This document shows positions 794 to 50,600 of a stretch of DNA of 64,000 nucleotides, in pieces. Below the pieces are notes generated by a model. It saw nothing but the letters and a program-made list of their open reading frames with translations. It searched no databases and was not told the origin of the DNA. The stretch lies in the IMG/VR virus record IMGVR_UViG_3300021091_000023; one strand, 5' to 3'. Made by a program: the position numbers and the translations under genes. The first letter of the stretch is position 1. Each line of letters opens with the position of its first letter. This DNA comes from an uncultured virus (IMG/VR IMGVR_UViG_3300021091_000023) (lineage: Duplodnaviria; Heunggongvirae; Uroviricota; Caudoviricetes).

Positions 794-1521
794 TATTTTA
801 ATTCTTTTAATTTTTTTATAAATTCTATCAAAACATTTACATCTTTTTCACAATACTCCGAAATTTCTTGTAACCTATTATCATTCCAATACGCTTCGTG
901 TACCATACCACCATTTATTTCTCCGTCTTTAGGTGTTGGTATATCTAAGGTTGCACAAACTAAATCTAATGATCCAATTACAGAATAAGCTCCGTACTGC
1001 CAAATTTCTTTTGTGTCAATTGCTTTTACTTCCCAAGGTTTAGTATCATATGAAGGAAGAATTTTAGATGGTTTAATACCGTTAATTATCATTCTTTTTG
1101 CCATCATAGGTATGTCAAAGTTTTTAAGATTGTGACCACAAAGATAAAAATCTAAGTTATGACATCTATCAAGAAGGTTTCTAACTTGTATTAATAATTC
1201 TTTTTCGTCATCACCTGAAAATGTTTGTTTTTTTATTTCACCATTTTCCATAACAAAAGCCATCGACACACAGACAATTTTTGCAAACTCAGGAACAAGT
1301 GCCGAACGTTTAAAATAAACATCATTCATTTTTTGTAGATCATCTTCCAAACTATCTGTTTCGTAGTTATCTTCAGGAAATCTTTTTAAGAACCAATCAA
1401 AGTATTTAACAAATTGTTCTGCTATTTTTGGGTTACTCTCTTGACATGATGACCAATCTTTACAAAGACCAACCGTCTCTATGTCCAAGAATAAAATTTT
1501 TGTAATAGGTATGTTTATCAT
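793..1521 (-). CDS. PolB-related DEDD 3'-5' exonuclease
   Basis: ExoI FLDIET, ExoII GHNLKNFDIP, ExoIII YCEKDV. Confidence 0.85.
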   Translation of the reverse strand: MINIPITKILFLDIETVGLCKDWSSCQESNPKIAEQFVKYFDWFLKRFPEDNYETDSLEDDLQKMNDVYFKRSALVPEFAKIVCVSMAFVMENGEIKKQTFSGDDEKELLIQVRNLLDRCHNLDFYLCGHNLKNFDIPMMAKRMIINGIKPSKILPSYDTKPWEVKAIDTKEIWQYGAYSVIGSLDLVCATLDIPTPKDGEINGGMVHEAYWNDNRLQEISEYCEKDVNVLIEFIKKLKELK

Positions 1522-2768
1522 TTTATTAAGGATTTATATAATTGTGCACGGTCAGCCGTGACTTTATTTAAGTCGTATGTGTCTTTAACTGTTTCATATA
1601 ATCTTTGTCCTAAATCATAAGCCCAATTAGGGTTATCAATTAATTTTTTCATATACTTAGACCAATCCCCATTTCTTACCTCATCAACTAAAAGAGCATT
1701 ACCATCAACAAAATTACCATTTTGTAATGAATGTTTCAAGTCGATAGTATACGGACCAACATTTGATGCAATAATTGTCTTTTTATAGAAACCTGCCTCA
1801 ATTACTTTCAATTGTGATTTAACTCTGTTAAAGATATGGTTTTTAATTGGCGCTAATGACACATCAAACCATTTGTAATTACCTGCATAACTTGTTACAG
1901 GTTTTGTCCAAACACGATTGTAAAAAGGTAAAACATCCGAATTATAATCTTCTTCTTTAAATTTCATTAAAAACTCTTTGTGTTTATCATCAACCATTCT
2001 ATAATTGTCTGTGAAAATTTCTTCATAACGAGCCCAAACCGTTTCTTCAGGTTTAATTGGTCTTTGTTTTTGTTCCCCTGTTTCTTTATTAATTTCAGTA
2101 ACGGTACCTCTAATATCAAACCCACAAAGATACATACTAAATTGATCTTTATATGGTTTAAGTTTATTTATTGTTCCATCTAATAATTTTAAATCATGTA
2201 AGTGTGATGACCCACCTAACCATCCAAAACGTAATTTATCTGATTTTAAAGTTTCTTGTTGAAACTGAGGTTCATTTGGGTTAATGGCGTTTGGTAACAC
2301 ATAAACATTTTTATTAAGTTTTGAAATCTCTGTTGCAAATATTGATGTTGTTGTCGTTACATGTTTTGCAACTTTAAGGTTTGCCATTATTTTTTGATGT
2401 AATTTGTTTTGCACAACTAATTGATGTACAGGATGTTCTTTTGTTGGTAACCAATAATCATCTAAATCCATTATAGTTATAATTCCCATATCGTTGAGAC
2501 GTTGAATAAGAATTGGTGCTTGATTATAGTCTTGACCTATAGTTCTATGAAAATGAACAATATCGTATTGCTTCCAATAATTCATATCATTAATTTTCGT
2601 GTCGTAGTCAATGTCTACATGGAAATCTTCTCCATGATTATTTTGTAACATAACGTGGGGGTCCACACTTCTAAATTTACCTTAACCAACTCCGGTGCGA
2701 TCGCTAGGGACTACTAACACCCTAATTTTTCTGCGAACGTCCGGAGTATATTTACTCTCTTGTGTCAT
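1518..2768 (-). CDS. GT-B (GT4-like) glycosyltransferase with an in-frame TAA at 2684-2682
   Basis: The ORF track calls 1518..2666. The same frame is open back to ATG 2768 apart from one stop: MTQESKYTPDVRRKIRVLVVPSDRTGVG*GKFRSVDPH. Motifs DLDDYW, VLPNA, GWLGGSSH and KSQLKVIEAG...IIASNVGPY. Confidence 0.85.
2689..2747 (-). promoter_or_regulatory. Extended mRNA stem-loop just 5' of the GGU-UAA-GGU site (candidate recoding signal)
   Basis: ACUCCGG-ACGUUCGC-AGAAAAAU-UAGGG-UGUUAGUAGU-CCCUA-GCGAUCGCA-CCGGAGU has nested complementary arms and is much GC-richer than its flanks. Confidence 0.6.
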
Positions 2769-3113
2769 ATTTTTTTATAATTTGTTTTATAAGTTTTGGA
2801 TTTTCTTTTAGATGTGGTTCCCAAACTACTTCCAAATTATAACCATTTTTTATAATTAAGTCAATCTTGTCCTTATCATTATCCCATAATTCTTGTGCTG
2901 TTTTTTGTTTTACCTGATGAAAATAATCTGATTTATATTTTTTGGATTACAATGCCAGTAATCTCCATTATATTCAATTATTAAATTTAATTTAGGTATG
3001 TATATGTCACATATTTTAGTATCTATTTTTAATGAGTGTTTTACATCATAACCTATTTTTTTTATTTCTAAAACTATATCTTTTTCTTTTTTTGATCTTA
3101 CAACAGATTTTAT
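2752..3113 (-). pseudogene. Decayed Vsr/DUF559-like (EDxHD-type) homing endonuclease
   Basis: Manual translation KSVVRSKKEKDIVLEIKKIGY...CDIYIPKLNLIIEYNGDYWHCNPK, then a 1-nt frameshift in the A-run at 2938-2943, then YKSDYFHQ...LWDNDKDKIDLIIKNGYNLEVVWE...YDTRE*. There is no start codon. Confidence 0.75.
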
Positions 3114-3730
3114 TTTTCTAATTTTTTTATTTTTGTTACTTTTCCGATAAACAAATGCTGACCGACTTTGAATTGTATTGTTTCATTTGTGTTTTGTGTT
3201 GATTCAACAATCATTCCAGCATCTTTAAACTCTTCTCTAACAACATCTCTCACAGTGTCTCTAACAACATCTCTAATTATATTTTTAATTTCAGACATGT
3301 TTATATTAGATGATGTTTGTGTTTCTGTAATTTTCTGTTTTGGTATTTGTTTATTAGGTATTTCTGATGTTTTTTCTTTTTTCATTAATCTTGTTGCCCC
3401 CTCGATAACCTCATTTGATAGAACAGTGCCGCCACCCATTGAACTTGGTTGTACTATTGGTTGCTCAATCATTAATCTTTTTATCTCATCAGGTAATTTT
3501 GAATTCATTATTCTTTCCCGTTCTAAGGGTTGTGAAGGATCGTGGTAAGTTTTGGGTGATGAATTTTCTGTTAAAAATTCTTCAGGTAAATTATAAGTCG
3601 CATTGAACGGTTGAAACTCCTCAATTGATGATGTCATCGGTCTTGAGTCACCCCTTCTAATTTCACCATGTTTTTCCATTATTTTTTTTGATACTGCCAA
3701 TCTTTGCATCAAATCTTGTTCATTTGTCAT
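3110..3730 (-). CDS. Hypothetical protein
   Basis: 206-aa ORF in a tightly packed minus-strand operon. Confidence 0.7.
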   Translation of the reverse strand: MTNEQDLMQRLAVSKKIMEKHGEIRRGDSRPMTSSIEEFQPFNATYNLPEEFLTENSSPKTYHDPSQPLERERIMNSKLPDEIKRLMIEQPIVQPSSMGGGTVLSNEVIEGATRLMKKEKTSEIPNKQIPKQKITETQTSSNINMSEIKNIIRDVVRDTVRDVVREEFKDAGMIVESTQNTNETIQFKVGQHLFIGKVTKIKKLEK

Positions 3731-3731
3731 A

Positions 3732-4133
3732 TTATGTTAAATTATCAACGTTATCGAATTTCGCATTTATTAAAACTCTCTCCATGGACCTATCACCATT
3801 AGGGTTATAATTAGGCCTCATGTCAATAAAATTATCCATTGTTGGTTGGTATGTAAATATTTTATCTAATCTAAATAGCCTCCAACCTGGTAAAAAGTTT
3901 CCTTTATTTTTTGCACTCCAAGAAGATCCCTCGGATTCCCAAGCCCTAAGAACTAAATTTCCTTTTTTACTGTAACCTAAACACAAAGGTTCAATTGTTC
4001 TATAACCCTTACCACCATTATCATTTCCATCGTAGTAAATAACAATTATCTTTTTTTTCTTAATAGAGTCTTGAACATCACCCAAAGATGCCGCTTCAGT
4101 AACTAATTTTTTTAAACTATCTAGTAGTCTCAT
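3732..4133 (-). CDS. Stand-alone WYL-like domain protein
   Basis: RTIEPLCLG...LRAWE...WRLFRLDKI pattern; no HTH domain. Confidence 0.7.
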   Translation of the reverse strand: MRLLDSLKKLVTEAASLGDVQDSIKKKKIIVIYYDGNDNGGKGYRTIEPLCLGYSKKGNLVLRAWESEGSSWSAKNKGNFLPGWRLFRLDKIFTYQPTMDNFIDMRPNYNPNGDRSMERVLINAKFDNVDNLT

Positions 4134-7608: not shown

Positions 7609-8034
7609 ATGCCATTAGTTACAAGAATATTACCTCCTGACGCAAAAAACGCCAAACTGACATTCCAAGAAATGGATAATAATTTATATTATCTACAAAG
7701 TCTGGGGGTTAGCGGGCTTACTTTTTCTGCAAATACGTTAACAATAACAAACCCAACAGGGGGTACAAAATCTGTTACAATAAATTCTGTAACAGGACTT
7801 ACTGTAAATGGAAATTTAACTGTAACAGGAAATACATCTTTACAAGGATTGACAGCAACAACAATATCTGCAACTACAACAACCACGGATGATTTCATTT
7901 TTAAAACAACATACGTTCCAACAGGATCCACAGACCCAACAGGGTCTATTGGTTCGATGAGTTGGAGCGGCAATTCTTTTTATGTTAAAACAAATACCTC
8001 TTGGGTAAAATTTACGGGACTAACATCGTGGTAG
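7609..8034 (+). CDS. Short fibre/decoration-like protein
   Basis: N-terminal LTFQEMDNN motif, Thr/Gly beta-repeats and C-terminal GSMSW...FYVKTNTSW. Confidence 0.55.
   Translation: MPLVTRILPPDAKNAKLTFQEMDNNLYYLQSLGVSGLTFSANTLTITNPTGGTKSVTINSVTGLTVNGNLTVTGNTSLQGLTATTISATTTTTDDFIFKTTYVPTGSTDPTGSIGSMSWSGNSFYVKTNTSWVKFTGLTSW
7789..7865 (+). repeat. 77-bp perfect direct repeat, copy 1
   Basis: gtaacaggacttactgtaaatgg...gacagcaacaacaat is identical to 8731-8807. Confidence 0.95.
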
Positions 8035-8509
8035 GTTTAAAAAAAACACGTTCTTTAGAACCAACTATTTGTTTATACCACATACCTTTATCATCTAACC
8101 AAACATAAGGATCTTCAGGATTTTCAGTCCAACCATGTTTTGTGTAATATTCAAAATCTTTACGTAAAAGATTTGCTCTGTGAGACGAATGAAACTCTTC
8201 GTTACCCAACCAATGTGGCAAAACAAATTCACCTTCAATTGTCTCGTATTCCATGTTATTTTTAAATCCACGTTCTTTCCAAACATCAATACAATCGTTG
8301 TAGTATTGTCTAAGTGCATTTACATAGTCTTTCCACATGATAGAACAAGGGTGAGACACCCAACCTTTATATGGTTTACCATCTTTACGCAATCTACCTG
8401 TAATTGCTGAAATAATTTGATAAGCCTCAACACGCTGCTTACCTAAACGTTTGTTGTCTAATGACTCTAATGATTTTATAAAATCGGAATACGGAAGAAA
8501 TGTTTGCAT
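8012..8509 (-). CDS. Pyrimidine-dimer DNA glycosylase-like protein (DenV/MSMEG_6728 family)
   Basis: MQTFLPY..F......LD.KRLGKQRVEA.QI, HP...MW, and PHWLG....HSSHRANLLRKD..YY. Confidence 0.8.
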   Translation of the reverse strand: MQTFLPYSDFIKSLESLDNKRLGKQRVEAYQIISAITGRLRKDGKPYKGWVSHPCSIMWKDYVNALRQYYNDCIDVWKERGFKNNMEYETIEGEFVLPHWLGNEEFHSSHRANLLRKDFEYYTKHGWTENPEDPYVWLDDKGMWYKQIVGSKERVFFKPTTMLVP

Positions 8510-15525: not shown

Positions 15526-18390
15526 TCACCTCTTATGAGAAATCATATTTAACACTTCTTCAATAGCAGATGCGTCTTCCATAAGACCATCACCCATCAC
15601 AGTAGATATTATTTTTTTCTTTCTATTAAGGATATCATATATAACACCTTCTATTGTGTTTTCAAAAAGTGGGTAGTAAACTGATGTTGAATTTTTTTGA
15701 CCAATTCTATGTGATCTGTCTTCTGCTTGTGCGTGTTCTGCAGGCACAAACGATAAGTCATTCATAATAACGGCCTCCGCTGAGGTTAAAGTAATACCAA
15801 CACCTGCAGCCTTTAAGTTCCCAACGAAAACTTTAATCTTGTCGTTTTCTTGAAAATCGTCCACCGCCTTTTGACGATGAGGTTTTGAACATGAACCATC
15901 TAAATAAACCGCTTGTTTTCCAAAATGTTCATATATTGTTTTTAAAGTGTCGGTGAAGTTTGTAAATATGATTACTTTTTTTCCTTGCTCTATAATGTTT
16001 TCTGCTAACTCAATAGTGTTTTTTACTTTTTCTTCAGCAATCACTTTTCTAACTTTCATTAGTTTTCCAAACTGAATTGTTAAAGATGATGACTCTTCTG
16101 AGTTGTTATCATACCAATTAAAATATTCACCCATAAGTTCTTCATAGTCTTTAGATTTTAATCTTAAATAAACGGGTGTTATAATTTTATCAGGTAAATC
16201 TAAAACATCTTCTTTTAATCTTCTTAAAATATGTGTTTGAGTTCTTTCTCTTAATTCATCTAAATTTGATGCTCCCGTTACATTCCAAACTTTTCTTTTT
16301 CCAACACTAAATTGGAATCCATTACAATATCTTCTTGCGTAAGCCATCCAATTTGCAGCAACAGGACTTTCAACTAAACTTAAAAGATTATAATAATTCA
16401 TTGGTCTTGATGTCATTGGAGTCCCTGTCAATAACCAAACTCTTTCAACTTTACCACATAAATTATTTACAATCTTTGTTCTTTGTGCTTGTGGATTCGA
16501 TATCATATGTGCTTCATCCATAATAACCAAATCAAAATTTGAATTTAAAATTGTGGATTCTTCTTTCTTTTTTGGGTCGTGAAAGTTTTTTAATATGTCA
16601 TAGTTAATTATAACAAAATCAGATTCACTTGAAAATTTTTTACCTTCTGCAATATATACGGTTCTATCTGAATAATTTTCAATTTCACGTTGCCAATTTA
16701 TTTTTAAAGATGCCGGACATATAATTAAAATCTTTTTAGCCCCGGTTTCAAGTGCAGATATAATTGTTGAGGTTGTATTATGGGTTACAATACAATGTTC
16801 TGTGACGTATAATTTATCTGGTGAATCAACAGAAATACAAACACTATCTTCAAAACCAACTTTTTCAATATTTTTAATATATCTACCAGTTGGGTATTTT
16901 GTTGGTTCAACATACCTTTCGGCCTTTCGTTTTAATCTAAATGGGTTCATACCCTTCGGTAATTTAATATTAACCCTATATACTAACTTACCTTTCTTTT
17001 TTTCACCATTATGTGTATATGTTGGGATACGAGTTTTGACTCTAGCAATACCACCTAATGTTTGAACAATCTCAACAACATCATCACATAGTTGTTTTGA
17101 TACAGTACAAAATTCAGTCCCTAAAAACTTCCCACTTCCATTAAACATACAATGTCCATCAGTATCCATTAATCCTTGTAGAATTGCTAACCTATTTTCA
17201 ATTGATGAATATTTGTATATTTCTGGAATAAATTTAGTTTGAGACCGCGTATGTTCAATACCTAAATCATACAATGAAGTACCAACATTAATACCCCCAC
17301 CCCTTTGATTAATCCTTGTTTTATGTTCATTCAATGGAAATGACTCAAACATATCGTCATAATCATCTTTATGTACCGAAAATCTAATGTTTTTTTGTCT
17401 GAACGAACCGTCACCTAATCCAAGACCTAATAAATAAGAATCTATCGGAAGAATATCATCCCGTTCAAATTGAATTGGATCAACGATTGGAATTTGCCAT
17501 TTATTGTTACCGTTCGATGATTTATAATAAGTTTCAATTTCATATTCCCTAGCTTTATTGTAGTCATTACCTTTAACTTTAATTTTACCACCCTCAAACA
17601 TTTGTTTGGTTGATAATACTATGGTTTTTTTTCGTCTTTCGTTTTTTCTATTTTTACCATAATTTGGTGATGATACAGACCATAAATGATATCCGTCTGT
17701 TTTTATTTTAACACCATCATTAAAGGTGATTTCATAAATGTCCTGTTCAGGTTGGGGGTAAACACCTGTAACTTTATATGTTGCACCATCGCTACCGATT
17801 ATTTCATCACCGACTAAAGTATTTCCAATTTTTTTAGTCCCATAAGGTGTGTAGATAATTGTCGACTTCAATAGACCTTTCCCCAATCCCATATCGTCAG
17901 CTAAAATAAACTTTTTGTTTCTAACAAGTTTTTCAATAGCCTCTTTTTGATGAACCATCGGTGCCCTGTGATCGTATTTTGAATATTCAATCACAACATT
18001 TTTAACTTCATTATCTTTTATAAGTGCTGTTTTTGGAATCCAAAAATCATGTAAAGTTTCACCACTAAATATTTTACCCCAAATGTGATATGATTTATCT
18101 TTTTCAACTAATAACTTTTCAACGTATATTTCTGACGGTTCCTTCGTATACATTTTATCTTCCATCATTTTTTTTCCAAAGTATGAATCGAGTTTTACCC
18201 ATTTTTTTGCAACCTTTGGTGTTCGTCCGTGAAAGTTAATTATGTATTCTGCTTGAGATCTTGTTGGTGTAAATGATTTACTATTTTGTTTTTTGTGTTT
18301 TAATCCTAAGATATAGTTATTTAATCCTACATAATCATCTAACATTTGAAGGGCTCTTGTTTCGAGAGTTTTTGAAATTAATTCTTCCAT
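15526..18390 (-). CDS. SNF2-family (HARP/SMARCAL1-like) helicase containing an intein
   Basis: LADDMGLGK[intein]TT, CPASLKINW, DEAH, LTGTP, GVGITLT, QAEDRSHRIGQ. Probable start is MEELISK at 18390 (track start 18459). Confidence 0.9.
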   Translation of the reverse strand: MEELISKTLETRALQMLDDYVGLNNYILGLKHKKQNSKSFTPTRSQAEYIINFHGRTPKVAKKWVKLDSYFGKKMMEDKMYTKEPSEIYVEKLLVEKDKSYHIWGKIFSGETLHDFWIPKTALIKDNEVKNVVIEYSKYDHRAPMVHQKEAIEKLVRNKKFILADDMGLGKGLLKSTIIYTPYGTKKIGNTLVGDEIIGSDGATYKVTGVYPQPEQDIYEITFNDGVKIKTDGYHLWSVSSPNYGKNRKNERRKKTIVLSTKQMFEGGKIKVKGNDYNKAREYEIETYYKSSNGNNKWQIPIVDPIQFERDDILPIDSYLLGLGLGDGSFRQKNIRFSVHKDDYDDMFESFPLNEHKTRINQRGGGINVGTSLYDLGIEHTRSQTKFIPEIYKYSSIENRLAILQGLMDTDGHCMFNGSGKFLGTEFCTVSKQLCDDVVEIVQTLGGIARVKTRIPTYTHNGEKKKGKLVYRVNIKLPKGMNPFRLKRKAERYVEPTKYPTGRYIKNIEKVGFEDSVCISVDSPDKLYVTEHCIVTHNTTSTIISALETGAKKILIICPASLKINWQREIENYSDRTVYIAEGKKFSSESDFVIINYDILKNFHDPKKKEESTILNSNFDLVIMDEAHMISNPQAQRTKIVNNLCGKVERVWLLTGTPMTSRPMNYYNLLSLVESPVAANWMAYARRYCNGFQFSVGKRKVWNVTGASNLDELRERTQTHILRRLKEDVLDLPDKIITPVYLRLKSKDYEELMGEYFNWYDNNSEESSSLTIQFGKLMKVRKVIAEEKVKNTIELAENIIEQGKKVIIFTNFTDTLKTIYEHFGKQAVYLDGSCSKPHRQKAVDDFQENDKIKVFVGNLKAAGVGITLTSAEAVIMNDLSFVPAEHAQAEDRSHRIGQKNSTSVYYPLFENTIEGVIYDILNRKKKIISTVMGDGLMEDASAIEEVLNMISHKR
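16777..17877 (-). mobile_element. Class 3-type intein (367 aa) with a LAGLIDADG endonuclease, inserted in Walker A
   Basis: Removing it restores DDMGLGKTT. It starts with Gly and ends VTHN/T. LAGLIDADG motifs LLGLGLGDG and LQGLMDTDG; HLW, VCISV and THN give the WCT triplet. Confidence 0.88.
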
Positions 18391-18486
18391 TATATTATAA
18401 ATAAAAATAGTAAATAATATAAAAAAAACAACTTTTTTTTTTAATGATATATTTATCAAATGAATTAAACTTGTAAAAATTAAAAA

Positions 18487-47642: not shown

Positions 47643-50600
47643 ATGAATATTTCGCAAAAAATATTAAGTGACATCACTGTCTTTATGAAATACGCTAAGT
47701 TTCAACCAAAATTAAATAGAAGAGAGACATGGGAAGAGTTGGTGACACGTAACAAAGAAATGCACCAAAGAAAATACCCTCACATTAAAGATGAGATAGA
47801 AGAGGTATATAAAATGGTGTATGACAAAAAAGTTTTACCATCCATGAGGTCATTACAATTTGGTGGAAAACCAATTGAGATTTCACCCAACAGAATCTAC
47901 AATTGTGCATACATGCCAATAGATCATGTAGACGCATTTTCTGAAACAATGTTTTTACTTTTAGGTGGAACAGGAGTTGGATACTCGGTTCAAAAACACC
48001 ACGTCGAAAAACTACCCGAAATAAAAAAACCAAACCCTGAAAGAACAAGACGTTATCTAATTGGTGACTCTATTGAAGGATGGGCAGACGCCATTAAAGT
48101 ATTAATGGAATCATATTTAGGTTATAAGTCATCAACACCTGTATTTGATTTTTCAGATATTAGACAAAAAGGTGCGATGCTTGTAACATCAGGAGGTAAA
48201 GCTCCAGGACCCCAACCATTAAAAGATTGTATTCATCAAATTACAAAAGTTTTGGATAACAAAAAAGATGGTGAAAGATTCAAACCTATCGAAACACATG
48301 ACATCATTTGTCATATTGCTGATGCAGTACTTGCAGGTGGTATCAGACGAGCGGCACTTATTTCATTATTTTCGGCTGACGATGAAGAAATGATTTCTTG
48401 TAAGTCAGGAAATTGGTGGGAACAAAACGCACAAAGAGGTAGAGCAAATAACTCAGCGGTACTTCTTCGTCACAAAATCACAAAAGAATTCTTTATGGAT
48501 CTTTGGAAACGTATTGAATTATCAGGAGCAGGAGAACCAGGAATTTATCTATCTAACGATAAAGATTGGGGGACTAACCCATCATTAAGAGCCGGTACAA
48601 AAGTATTAACAACCGATGGTATTTTTCCAATTGAAGAGCTTGAAGGTAAAAACTTTAAAGTTAAGAATTTAAACGGTGTTATTTCTGATGCTCGTTGTTG
48701 GTTATCAGGTCAAAATAAACAACTTTGGAAATTAAAATTAGAAGATGGTACTGAATATTATGCAACACCAGAACACGAATGGCCGGTTTGGGATGGTGAA
48801 AAGTATGTTAAAGTTAAAACACCTGAATTAACAAATGGTGATAGATTACCAATTTTAAGAGAAGAAAAATTATTTGATGGTGATTTGGGAACACATAACG
48901 ATGGTTTTCTTTGCGGTTGGATTATTGGTGATGGTTGGGCATCAAATAGAAAAGATTATACCGAATATGGTATGGTTGTTTCCGATGACGACGACGAGTC
49001 CAATATTTCTGAAACGCTAGTAAATACAATAAAAGATAATGTCCCAACCTTTTCTGGTAATTTTAAAAGAAGATTTAAGAAAACTTTTAATACTGAAGAA
49101 GAAGAAATGCAAATTACATTGGTTGAAACAAAAACTAAAGAAATTAGTATTAACAATAAATCCGTATATGATTATCTATCAAAATTTGGTTCGTTAATAA
49201 AAAGTGAAGGGTTACCAAAAACAGTTTGGGTTAATGGTAGTGAAGAATTTAGAAAAGGTATTGTTGATGCTTTATTTAGTTCTGACGGACATATCGCAAA
49301 AACACAAAAAAGATTAACATTTACTACAAAACATAAACAATTGGCTGAAGATGTTTCAGAACTATTAGGTTTCTATGGTATTAAAACCAAAATAAAAACA
49401 TCGACACAAAGTTTAGAAGGGTATGATACAGAATACACAAGATATGATTTGAGAATTAGTGAAACAACATCAATAAAACAATTTAGAAATATTTTTAAAT
49501 TAACAAACAAAAGAAAACAAGAAGTTTTAGATAGTTATGAATTTAGATATAATATTTTTGATGACAAACAAATTAAAGTTGAATCTGTTGAATTAACTGA
49601 TCTTTATGAAGATGTTTGGGATATATCGGTGTATGATGAAACACATTGTTTTCAGATATCAAAAGTTGTTACAGGTAATTGTTGCGAAATCGCACTACGA
49701 CCATACCAATTCTGTAACCTATGTGAGGTAAATGCTTCAGATATTGAATCACAAGAAGATTTTGATAAAAGAGTTAAAGCAGCATCATTCATTGGTACTT
49801 TACAAGCTGGTTATACTGACTTCCATTATTTGAGAGATATTTGGAAAAGAACAACCGAAAAAGACGCACTTATCGGTGTCGGTATGACAGGTATTGGTTC
49901 AGGTGTTGTGTTAGGTTATGATATGAAGAGAGCGGCCAAAATGGTTAAAGAAGAAAACGAAAGAGTTGCGAATTTGATTAACATTAATAAATCAGCAAGA
50001 ACAACAACGGTTAAACCATCAGGTACCTCATCATTAGTATTAGGTACATCATCAGGAATTCATGCATGGCATAATGATTACTACCTAAGAAGAATTCGTG
50101 TAGGAAAAAATGAATCAATTTATTCTTATTTAGCAATCAATCATCCTGAATTAATCGAAGACGAATACTTTAGACCACACGATACTGCGGTTATTACAAT
50201 ACCACAAAGAGCACCTGAAGGGTCTATTGTAAGACATGAATCAGTATTTCAAATGTTAGAAAGAGTTAAAAAAGTTTCACAAGAATGGATTAAACCTGGT
50301 CACAGAAACGGACAAAATACTCACAACGTTTCAGCTACAGTTTCAATCAAAGAAGATGAGTGGGAATTAGTTGGTGATTGGATGTGGAATAATAGAGATT
50401 TCTATAACGGACTTTCAGTATTACCATACAACGGAGGAACATATACTCAAGCGCCATTTGAAGATTGTACAAAAGAAGATTTTGAAAGATTAGTTAAATC
50501 ATTAACAGATGTTGATCTTACAAAAGTTATTGAGTTACAAGATAATACAGATCTTCGTGGTGAGGCCGCTTGTGCTGGAGGTGCTTGTGAAATTGTATAA
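47643..50600 (+). CDS. nrdJ: Class II (B12-dependent) ribonucleotide reductase containing an intein
   Basis: PSMRSLQ, YNCA, GTGVG, GGIRRAA, TNP[intein]CCEI, CNL, TTVKPSGT, C-terminal CAGGAC. Confidence 0.92.
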   Translation: MNISQKILSDITVFMKYAKFQPKLNRRETWEELVTRNKEMHQRKYPHIKDEIEEVYKMVYDKKVLPSMRSLQFGGKPIEISPNRIYNCAYMPIDHVDAFSETMFLLLGGTGVGYSVQKHHVEKLPEIKKPNPERTRRYLIGDSIEGWADAIKVLMESYLGYKSSTPVFDFSDIRQKGAMLVTSGGKAPGPQPLKDCIHQITKVLDNKKDGERFKPIETHDIICHIADAVLAGGIRRAALISLFSADDEEMISCKSGNWWEQNAQRGRANNSAVLLRHKITKEFFMDLWKRIELSGAGEPGIYLSNDKDWGTNPSLRAGTKVLTTDGIFPIEELEGKNFKVKNLNGVISDARCWLSGQNKQLWKLKLEDGTEYYATPEHEWPVWDGEKYVKVKTPELTNGDRLPILREEKLFDGDLGTHNDGFLCGWIIGDGWASNRKDYTEYGMVVSDDDDESNISETLVNTIKDNVPTFSGNFKRRFKKTFNTEEEEMQITLVETKTKEISINNKSVYDYLSKFGSLIKSEGLPKTVWVNGSEEFRKGIVDALFSSDGHIAKTQKRLTFTTKHKQLAEDVSELLGFYGIKTKIKTSTQSLEGYDTEYTRYDLRISETTSIKQFRNIFKLTNKRKQEVLDSYEFRYNIFDDKQIKVESVELTDLYEDVWDISVYDETHCFQISKVVTGNCCEIALRPYQFCNLCEVNASDIESQEDFDKRVKAASFIGTLQAGYTDFHYLRDIWKRTTEKDALIGVGMTGIGSGVVLGYDMKRAAKMVKEENERVANLININKSARTTTVKPSGTSSLVLGTSSGIHAWHNDYYLRRIRVGKNESIYSYLAINHPELIEDEYFRPHDTAVITIPQRAPEGSIVRHESVFQMLERVKKVSQEWIKPGHRNGQNTHNVSATVSIKEDEWELVGDWMWNNRDFYNGLSVLPYNGGTYTQAPFEDCTKEDFERLVKSLTDVDLTKVIELQDNTDLRGEAACAGGACEIV
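48582..49679 (+). mobile_element. Intein (366 aa) with a LAGLIDADG endonuclease in nrdJ
   Basis: Starts SLRAGTKV, block B ATPEHEW, GWIIGDG and DALFSSDG, ends VTGN/C. Removing it restores GTNPCCEI. Confidence 0.92.

What the first reader, a model, noticed from the sequence alone, without database searches (positions are those of the whole stretch)
2679..2768. Glycosyltransferase interrupted by GGT-TAA-GGT: candidate minimal programmed ribosomal bypass (stop-hop)
Seen: from ATG 2768 the frame reads ...KIRVLVVPSDRTGVG-stop-G-KFRSVDPH... and then continues intact for about 385 codons. The single UAA (2684-2682) sits between two identical GGU codons. Established: matched take-off and landing codons flanking a stop define ribosomal hopping; T4 gene 60 uses Gly codons. 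Inference: skipping 6 nt (UAAGGU) would give ...TGVGKFRS. Starting instead at GTG 2666 would lose KIRVLVV, the likely first beta-strand of the GT-B fold. The intact downstream frame argues against an old pseudogene.
Basis: partly seen in the sequence, partly recalled or inferred. Interest (0 to 1): 0.9.

Follow-up and report, generated by a model that had tools for sequence, protein, structure and literature searches.

The report
Short ribosome hop in phage glycosyltransferase
A sugar-transferase gene of an uncultured large lake phage has a real stop codon after codon 28, part of a selfish nuclease cassette; dozens of related versions (gaps of 5 to 15 bases behind a long RNA hairpin) indicate that ribosomes hop over it, a miniature and still bench-untested counterpart of the phage T4 gene 60 bypass.

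Summary
The GGT-TAA-GGT break (2687-2679, minus strand) is real and conserved. Among 155 distinct homologous alleles, 82 read TGV-G-K/Y-F-R-S uninterrupted. The other 73 have 5-15 nt gaps at this site, in all three frames. Every gap has a stop right after the take-off codon; take-off and landing encode the same residue in 71 of 73, one allele switching both to Ser. A ~60-nt hairpin ends at the take-off codon (-23 to -38 kcal/mol in all gapped alleles; above -12 in 81 of 82 gapless ones). A homing-endonuclease-like gene lies upstream (40 of 54 gapped, 3 of 84 gapless; decayed here). Gapped alleles are scattered over the enzyme tree, as expected of a mobile cassette, and stay under purifying selection. 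Best reading (0.8): programmed ribosomal bypass, working like T4 mobA/gene 60 but unrelated to it, without its A-site stem-loop. No RNA or protein data exist; readthrough/frameshift with extra residues is not excluded. Six literature searches found no published description. This scan reported the same element earlier on other genomes (e1-5369304, e1-5375126).

The parts
2682..2768 (-). ORF1: cassette-supplied 5' end of the glycosyltransferase. 28 codons plus stop: a ~10-codon leader extension, then beta-1 KIRVLVV and PSDRTGVG
   Evidence: start to take-off is 26-28 codons in 67 of 67 gapped alleles and 16-19 in 83 of 84 gapless ones
2689..2747 (-). Long mRNA hairpin. Basal 5' arm 2747-2741 pairs with 2695-2689 and ends 1 nt before the take-off codon
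   Evidence: the window's -23.1 kcal/mol is the weakest value among 73 gapped alleles, z -1.5 alone against shuffles
2685..2687 (-). Candidate take-off codon GGT (Gly)
   Evidence: GGY in 71 of 73 gapped alleles, AGT in 2
2682..2684 (-). In-frame stop TAA directly after take-off
   Evidence: TAA 54, TGA 14, TAG 5 of 73; no TGG in 71 homologous loci although the pattern allowed it
2679..2681 (-). Candidate landing codon GGT (the native Gly before KFRS)
1518..2678 (-). ORF2: body of a GT-B glycosyltransferase
   Evidence: phrog_7162 E 1e-44; model of gapless homologue L002 pLDDT 87, best fold matches PglA, GlgM, MshA, BshA; dN/dS 0.03-0.21 in gapped pairs
2752..3116 (-). Decayed free-standing endonuclease: only the last ~125 of ~304 codons remain, with a frameshift near 2945-2937; its end overlaps the glycosyltransferase start by 17 nt. 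The 3116 boundary is approximate
   Evidence: intact homologue L009 hits NUMOD3 (E 2e-6), weak REase_MTES_1575 (E 1e-3, below cut-off) and PHROG homing endonuclease (E 1e-10)
2836..2864 (-). Sigma-70-like promoter match (11 of 12) inside the endonuclease 3' end; possible cassette-supplied promoter for the glycosyltransferase (inferred)
   Evidence: site count in the region is not above shuffles, 15 vs 15.9; a match of at least 10/12 lies upstream of 53 of 63 gapped and 25 of 84 gapless alleles, often at the same -67 position

Best explanation
A mobile cassette (free-standing endonuclease plus its own copy of the first ~28 codons and ~27 nt beyond) replaces the 5' end of a phage GT-B glycosyltransferase gene. 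It carries a short stop-containing gap that probably spoils the nuclease's target site, and the ribosome hops over the gap. SHOWN: the gap series, the stop after take-off, matched codon pairs, the hairpin-gap coupling, the endonuclease association, the patchy distribution with sharp boundaries, and purifying selection. INFERRED: the ribosome pauses with peptidyl-tRNA-Gly on GGU and the stop in the A site. The hairpin's 3' strand is then still in the mRNA exit channel, so its pairing with the leader as it emerges pulls mRNA out and slides the ribosome forward 5-15 nt. The tRNA re-pairs at the next GGN and translation resumes at K-F-R-S, giving the native junction. An SD-like GGAG/GGGG 2 nt before take-off may help. 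Nuclease cutting and immunity by the gap are inferred by analogy with T4 MobA.
For: 25 different gap sequences of 5, 6 and 8-15 nt in all three frames at one codon; removing the gap restores the native junction in every case, with a Gly/Ser choice in the two unmatched alleles. The stop is conserved as a stop, not as a sequence (TAA, TGA, TAG; never TGG). Scans that left take-off and stop free gave 30 gapped of 32 homologous loci, all with a stop after GGY or AGT. One allele has AGT take-off with AGC landing (L309/L316). Hairpin energies of gapped and gapless alleles do not overlap; the two gapless alleles with a leader relic have weakened stems (L304 -21.2, L119 -11.6). Compensatory changes: 47 cells changed on both sides against 18.0 in shuffles, 0 of 500. 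Endonuclease in 40 of 54 vs 3 of 84. At least 18 forced changes on the enzyme tree. L202 and L005 are 95% identical in the body, with the switch ~27 nt after landing. 43 of 43 full-length gapped alleles keep an open ORF2 of 378 codons or more. A complete 308,574-bp genome has only the gapped copy.
Against: No RNA or protein evidence. 14 of 73 alleles pair GGY with GGA, which standard wobble does not match, and 2 of 73 mismatch at the first base (L224 GGC to AGC; L364 AGT to GGC). The Ser/Ser case is a single allele. The landing Gly is conserved in the protein anyway, and most scans demanded GG at take-off. All 28 non-triplet gaps are open in the downstream frame, and the loop is low-confidence in the model (pLDDT under 50 at residues 15-17), so extra residues may be tolerated. 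dN/dS is about twice as high in gapped pairs (0.034-0.208, 19 pairs) as in gapless pairs (0.025-0.050, 10 pairs). Two of the five covariation measures did not beat shuffles (214/500, 409/500), and the structure was derived from these sequences. In T4 the pushing structures lie ~26 nt from the P site; here the stem ends 0-2 nt from take-off, so the geometry differs and the driver role is unproven.
Confidence: 0.8

Rival explanations
1. Hairpin-stimulated recoding without a hop: stop readthrough in the 6, 9, 12 and 15 nt alleles and +1 or -1 frameshifts in the others, adding 2-5 residues to a flexible loop.
For: 28 of 28 non-triplet gaps are open in the downstream frame; the loop has low pLDDT; codon matching is imperfect.
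Against: Needs three mechanisms and three different stop codons behind one conserved signal. None of 84 gapless alleles has extra residues here (the parse could have shown them as gaps without a stop). It does not explain the Ser/Ser allele. No suppressor among 18 tRNA genes read in the complete gapped genome; at least 2 further matches were not read.
Confidence: 0.08
2. The gap is removed at RNA level, by excision and ligation guided by the hairpin or by an RNA polymerase jump between the two GG repeats.
For: The hairpin abuts the gap and the gap is flanked by short direct repeats. RNA was not examined.
Against: RNA removal would not need an in-frame stop of any kind directly after the first repeat. 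No Rfam family reaches its threshold. 5-6 nt is far below the size of any self-splicing intron (own knowledge).
Confidence: 0.05
3. Two products: a 28-aa peptide plus a re-initiated body (for example from GTG 2666), complementing each other or lacking beta-1.
For: An in-frame GTG lies 5 codons after landing in the window, with TAAGG upstream.
Against: That GTG is present in 5 of 67 alleles; 27 of 67 have no in-frame ATG, GTG or TTG within 40 codons. The R and S right after landing are kept through six-codon synonymous sets, including AGT/TCN Ser, so they are translated.
Confidence: 0.04
4. The cassette simply inactivates a dispensable gene and the gapped alleles are young pseudogenes.
For: dN/dS is mildly higher in gapped pairs. 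The window's hairpin is the weakest seen and its nuclease is dead. Divergence could predate cassette arrival.
Against: dN/dS is 0.04-0.11 within gapped-only clades with dS up to ~1.1, and 43 of 43 ORF2s are intact. 14 of 54 gapped alleles have lost the nuclease yet keep hairpin and gap. The complete genome has no second copy.
Confidence: 0.03

Closest known systems
Phage T4 gene 60 50-nt bypass within the MobA homing-endonuclease element, and its homologues (Manning and Atkins, bioRxiv 10.1101/2022.08.31.505936, parts 1-3 of 7 read; Wills et al., bioRxiv 10.1101/2024.12.09.627546, parts 1-2 of 7 and passages read; Bonocora 2011 seen only as cited there)
   Same: Endonuclease overlapping an element-encoded N-terminal extension; an element-encoded replacement of the target region; a gap ending at the landing codon; Gly take-off, then a stop; wobble differences between take-off and landing; repeated independent insertion; nuclease decay with the gap retained.
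   Different: Target is a glycosyltransferase 5' end, not topoisomerase. The nuclease is NUMOD3 plus PD-(D/E)XK-like, not HNH MobA. The gap is 5-15 nt, not 20-50, and too short for the A-site/take-off stem-loop. The conserved signal is one upstream hairpin ending at take-off, whereas the T4 5' stem-loop is not conserved across clades. The leader is 27 codons, not 45, with no evident peptide motif.
Streptomyces phage phiHau3 terminase 10-nt bypasses (Antonov et al. 2023, PMC10732093; passages and section 3.6 read)
   Same: Short gap, Gly before the pause codon, proposed 5' stem-loop and Shine-Dalgarno signals; junction peptide shown there by mass spectrometry in E. coli with a UAA variant.
   Different: Triggered by the hungry UUA codon and proposed to be regulatory; no endonuclease was mentioned in the passages read; a few alleles of one length, against 25 gap sequences here.
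Synthetic 'stop hop' of 9 nt encoding one amino acid (as reviewed in Atkins et al. 2016, PMC5009743; passages read)
   Same: The window's allele is exactly this form: matched codons flanking a stop.
   Different: Synthetic hops are low-level and lack stimulators. The review says no natural in-frame stop-hopping occurrences were known as of 2016.
GT-B retaining glycosyltransferases (PglA, GlgM, MshA, BshA); phage phrog_7162
   Same: Fold (Foldseek E ~1e-12, TM 0.55-0.62).
   Different: 10-13% identity; substrate and acceptor unknown; no Pfam family passes its cut-off.

Membership tests
Programmed translational bypass (general) | Non-coding gap absent from intact homologues, whose removal restores the native junction | tested here: met
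Programmed translational bypass (general) | Matched take-off and landing codons | tested here: met
   Same residue in 71 of 73, identical in 34 of 73, one Ser/Ser allele, two first-base mismatches; most scans required GG at take-off
Programmed translational bypass (general) | Stop or hungry codon directly 3' of take-off | tested here: met
   73 of 73; also in scans that did not ask for it
Programmed translational bypass (general) | One polypeptide from both ORFs with the gap retained in mRNA | not testable with these tools
   No RNA holder listed; no proteomics tool
T4 gene 60 / MobA element | HNH MobA inserted in the topoisomerase large-subunit gene | tested here: not met
   Target is a GT-B gene; nuclease hits NUMOD3 and weak REase_MTES_1575, with a weaker PHROG HNH hit at E 6e-7
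T4 gene 60 / MobA element | Take-off/A-site stem-loop with the take-off codon on its 5' side and a tetraloop | tested here: not met
   The 6-nt gap has no room; conserved pairing lies 5' of take-off; the region after landing folds no better in gapped than in gapless alleles (-5.3 vs -5.7 kcal/mol)
T4 gene 60 / MobA element | Stem-loop 5' of take-off | tested here: met
   Predicted in 73 of 73; covariation on 33 of 60 distinct hairpins; position differs from T4
T4 gene 60 / MobA element | Mini Shine-Dalgarno 5-7 nt before landing | tested here: inconclusive
   GGAG or GGGG sits 2 nt before take-off in 60 of 67 gapped vs 32 of 84 gapless alleles, fixed to take-off, not landing; stem pairing alone explains it, and 6 alleles have GGCG
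T4 gene 60 / MobA element | Conserved nascent-peptide stimulator | tested here: inconclusive
   Leader residues vary except where the stem dictates them; leader length is fixed
Free-standing homing-endonuclease cassette | Patchy presence among close relatives, sharp boundaries, converted flank | tested here: met
Free-standing homing-endonuclease cassette | Cuts the gapless allele and spares the gapped one | not testable with these tools
   Three gapless alleles also carry the nuclease or a remnant (L039, L047, L115), so the gap is not the only possible protection
phiHau3-type UUA bypass | Hungry UUA codon after take-off | tested here: not met
   Always a stop
Self-splicing intron or known RNA family | Catalytic core or Rfam match | tested here: not met
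   Best Rfam E 0.37, below gathering score; gap is 6 nt
GT-B glycosyltransferase | Two Rossmann-like domains starting with strand beta-1 | tested here: met
   Gapless homologue L002: strand at residues 4-9; GT-B matches

The most novel reading that the evidence does not exclude
A minimal bypass machine made of one mRNA hairpin, a stop and a loosely matched codon, with no A-site stem-loop or peptide motif. Zipping of the stem as mRNA leaves the ribosome both drives the slide and sets its length: 27 of 29 alleles whose stem reaches into the take-off codon have gaps of 8 nt or more, against 3 of 38 others (only 4 well-supported independent pairs, on average 3 agreeing and none opposing, p 0.25). 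The window's allele would then be a natural programmed in-frame stop-hop, a form that the 2016 review listed as unknown in nature.
Probability: 0.45. Interest if true: 0.9.

Novelty: new variant of a known kind. Interest (0 to 1): 0.8.

Why it matters
Published programmed bypassing, in the papers read here, is limited to T4 gene 60 and its homologues, Magnusiomyces mitochondria and phiHau3. An unrelated element of under 100 nt with 25 natural gap versions makes an open question directly testable: whether pairing of mRNA leaving the ribosome drives forward sliding (proposed by Wills et al. 2024), and whether the stem's end sets the distance. It suggests that bypass is a recurrent way for homing endonucleases to sit at conserved genes. 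It also means that such phage genes are misannotated as truncated or pseudogenes, and that the element could serve as a compact recoding part.

Tried and rejected
Assembly error: rejected. TAA reassignment: rejected, TAA ends 28 of 37 long ORFs. No whole genome is held for the window. No RNA holder was listed, which says nothing about expression. Rfam: nothing above threshold. No tRNA in the window. Cellular genomes: 19 pattern matches, none a homologue by translation. GenBank phages: only distant homologues, best 33%; not examined for gaps. A crude scan of the window for other hop-like sites ranked this one first (-23.1; next -17.0); the rest look like ordinary gene starts and were not followed up. 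The single-sequence model of the endonuclease was unusable (pLDDT 39.8) and the PDB sequence search gave only weak hits (best E 0.13 to intron endonuclease 1i3j), so its fold family rests on weak profile hits. A GT...AG look of some gaps was noticed and dropped: the 8-nt gaps do not fit it. Whether this phage belongs to the 'moraphages' (PMC12619734, passages read; 0 occurrences of 'bypass') was not tested; the host is unknown.

Full report
OBSERVATION. The minus strand from ATG 2768 reads 28 codons ending ...PSDRTGVG, then TAA (2684-2682), then GKFRS... open to 1518. The window comes from a large tailed phage: tail sheath, baseplate, DnaB, UvsX-like and PolB genes, about 31% GC. The break is real. 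It is present in independent contigs L001 and L023 and in diverged relatives, and contigs of runs X13 and X17 bridge it without differences; X21 does not cover it and X24 reaches only 17 letters past it.

THE ALLELE SERIES. Of 204 viral relatives the best 80 were fetched; 70 are uninterrupted and 10 are broken at the same codon. Pattern scans widened the set. The final parse of loci L001-L376 gave 73 distinct gapped and 82 gapless alleles. An earlier, stricter parse of L001-L282 gave 67 and 84 and underlies; it left 27 loci unparsed, 23 of them chance matches and 4 true homologues. Gaps are 5 (6 alleles), 6 (36), 8 (8), 9 (4), 10 (1), 11 (11), 12 (1), 13 (3), 14 (1) and 15 (2) nt, in 25 different sequences. 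The codon after take-off is TAA 54, TGA 14, TAG 5. Take-off to landing: GGT-GGT 34, GGT-GGC 15, GGT-GGA 9, GGC-GGT 7, GGC-GGA 5, AGT-AGC 1, AGT-GGC 1, GGC-AGC 1. Most patterns required GG and a stop, so the gapped fraction is enriched and these regularities are partly built in. The scans free of that bias agree: 10 of 10 gapped loci; stop free; both free: 30 gapped of 32 homologous loci, 28 GGY and 2 AGT, all followed by a stop; take-off free: 29 GGY and 3 AGT of 32 homologous loci.

THE HAIRPIN. Every gapped allele has about ten extra N-terminal codons (26-28 codons to take-off against 16-19). These form the 5' arm of a ~60-nt hairpin whose base ends at the take-off codon. Energies are -23.1 to -37.6 kcal/mol in gapped alleles and -1.7 to -11.6 in 81 of 82 gapless ones; the exception, L304 (-21.2), is a leader-bearing relic with a broken pair. 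On 33 of the 60 distinct hairpins (one pairing register) 87.7% of cells pair and 47 cells change on both sides, against 18.0 in shuffles (0 of 500). Third codon positions of Thr, Gly and Val co-vary with the leader. Two measures did not exceed shuffles, and the structure came from these sequences. The other 27 hairpins were not scored. The stem starts 18-25 nt after the ATG in 67 of 67 alleles, which would leave room for initiation (inference). Stems that reach into the take-off codon go with longer gaps (27 of 29 vs 3 of 38), but the independent contrasts are too few to be significant.

THE CASSETTE. A ~300-aa ORF with NUMOD3 and a weak PD-(D/E)XK-type hit lies just upstream and usually overlaps the start codon. 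It or its remnant is found in 40 of 54 gapped and 3 of 84 gapless alleles with at least 500 nt upstream; 13 gapped alleles were too short to score. In the window it is truncated and frameshifted. On a quick tree of 130 enzyme bodies (21 short or identical rows left out), the gap state needs 27 changes, at least 18 forced by strongly supported branches. L202 (gapped) and L005 (gapless) are 95% identical in the body; they differ by the ~950-nt insert and by synonymous changes that stop ~27 nt after landing. This is the pattern Manning and Atkins describe for MobA.

IS THE GENE USED? ORF2 is open in 43 of 43 full-length gapped alleles; dN/dS is 0.034-0.208 in 19 gapped pairs and 0.025-0.050 in 10 gapless pairs. 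Selection is strong but somewhat relaxed, and part of the divergence may predate cassette arrival. A complete 308,574-bp genome has one copy, gapped. The upstream peptide is strand beta-1 of a confident GT-B model of a gapless homologue. No start codon is conserved after the stop.

MECHANISM. One process that treats a stop as a stop, ignores frame and gap length, and needs a codon matching in its first two bases is ribosomal bypass. The likely driver is pairing of the hairpin's 3' strand as it leaves the ribosome, the role Wills et al. propose for T4. This step is inferred; the number of nucleotides held in the exit channel is from my own knowledge, and the T4 spacing of ~26 nt does not match. 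Loose third-base matching may reflect two-of-three pairing in the P site, or reading by a tRNA-Gly(UCC) such as the one in the complete gapped genome; neither was tested. Readthrough or frameshift with extra loop residues is the main rival.

COMPARISON AND NOVELTY. It works like T4 mobA/gene 60 but is not a member: target, nuclease, gap size and signals differ. phiHau3 has short gaps but a hungry-codon trigger. The 2016 review knew no natural in-frame stop hop. Six searches of the held library returned no paper on this element. The library lacks most subscription journals, and bioRxiv supplements, such as the metagenomic tables of Manning and Atkins, were not seen. My reading was fixed before the look-up of earlier scan notes. 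Those notes report the same element on other genomes, and a similar design in other genes that I did not test.

VERDICT. A real and conserved candidate for a second, minimal family of endonuclease-borne ribosomal bypass: a new variant of a known kind, with strong comparative support and no experimental proof. Interest 0.8.

Noticed in passing
window 15526-18459 (-): SNF2-type helicase with a LAGLIDADG/Hom_end insert at residues ~411-499, probably an intein.
   Followed up: no
window 47643-50600 (+): B12-dependent ribonucleotide reductase with an intein-splicing and LAGLIDADG domain.
   Followed up: no
window 8012-8509 (-): Pyrimidine dimer DNA glycosylase (Pyr_excise, E 2e-20).
   Followed up: no
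L349 2-1864 (-): The Ser/Ser gapped glycosyltransferase also seems to carry an intein after WLGGS (C-start, N-end; judged by eye). L224 has a similar stretch, and L081 and L099 have long ORF2s. Two selfish elements in one gene.
   Followed up: partly
L039, L047, L115 upstream of the glycosyltransferase: Endonuclease or remnant present, with codons like the cassette's 3' arm, but no leader and no gap: possible reversions or a gap-free version of the cassette.
   Followed up: partly
L304 and L119/L305: Gapless alleles that keep the leader extension with a weakened hairpin: likely relics after loss of the gap.
   Followed up: partly
L388 1500-1573: tRNA-like gene with an 8-nt anticodon loop that could read as TAA or TTA, in a genome whose glycosyltransferase is gapless.
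   Followed up: no
window 2697 and 2937: A contig of run X24 differs at 2697 in the way that restores a stem pair (as in L001) and has one extra base near the nuclease frameshift: the window's cassette may be decaying.
   Followed up: no
window 3732-4133 (-): WYL-domain protein (E 9e-5) in the conserved block upstream of the glycosyltransferase.
   Followed up: no
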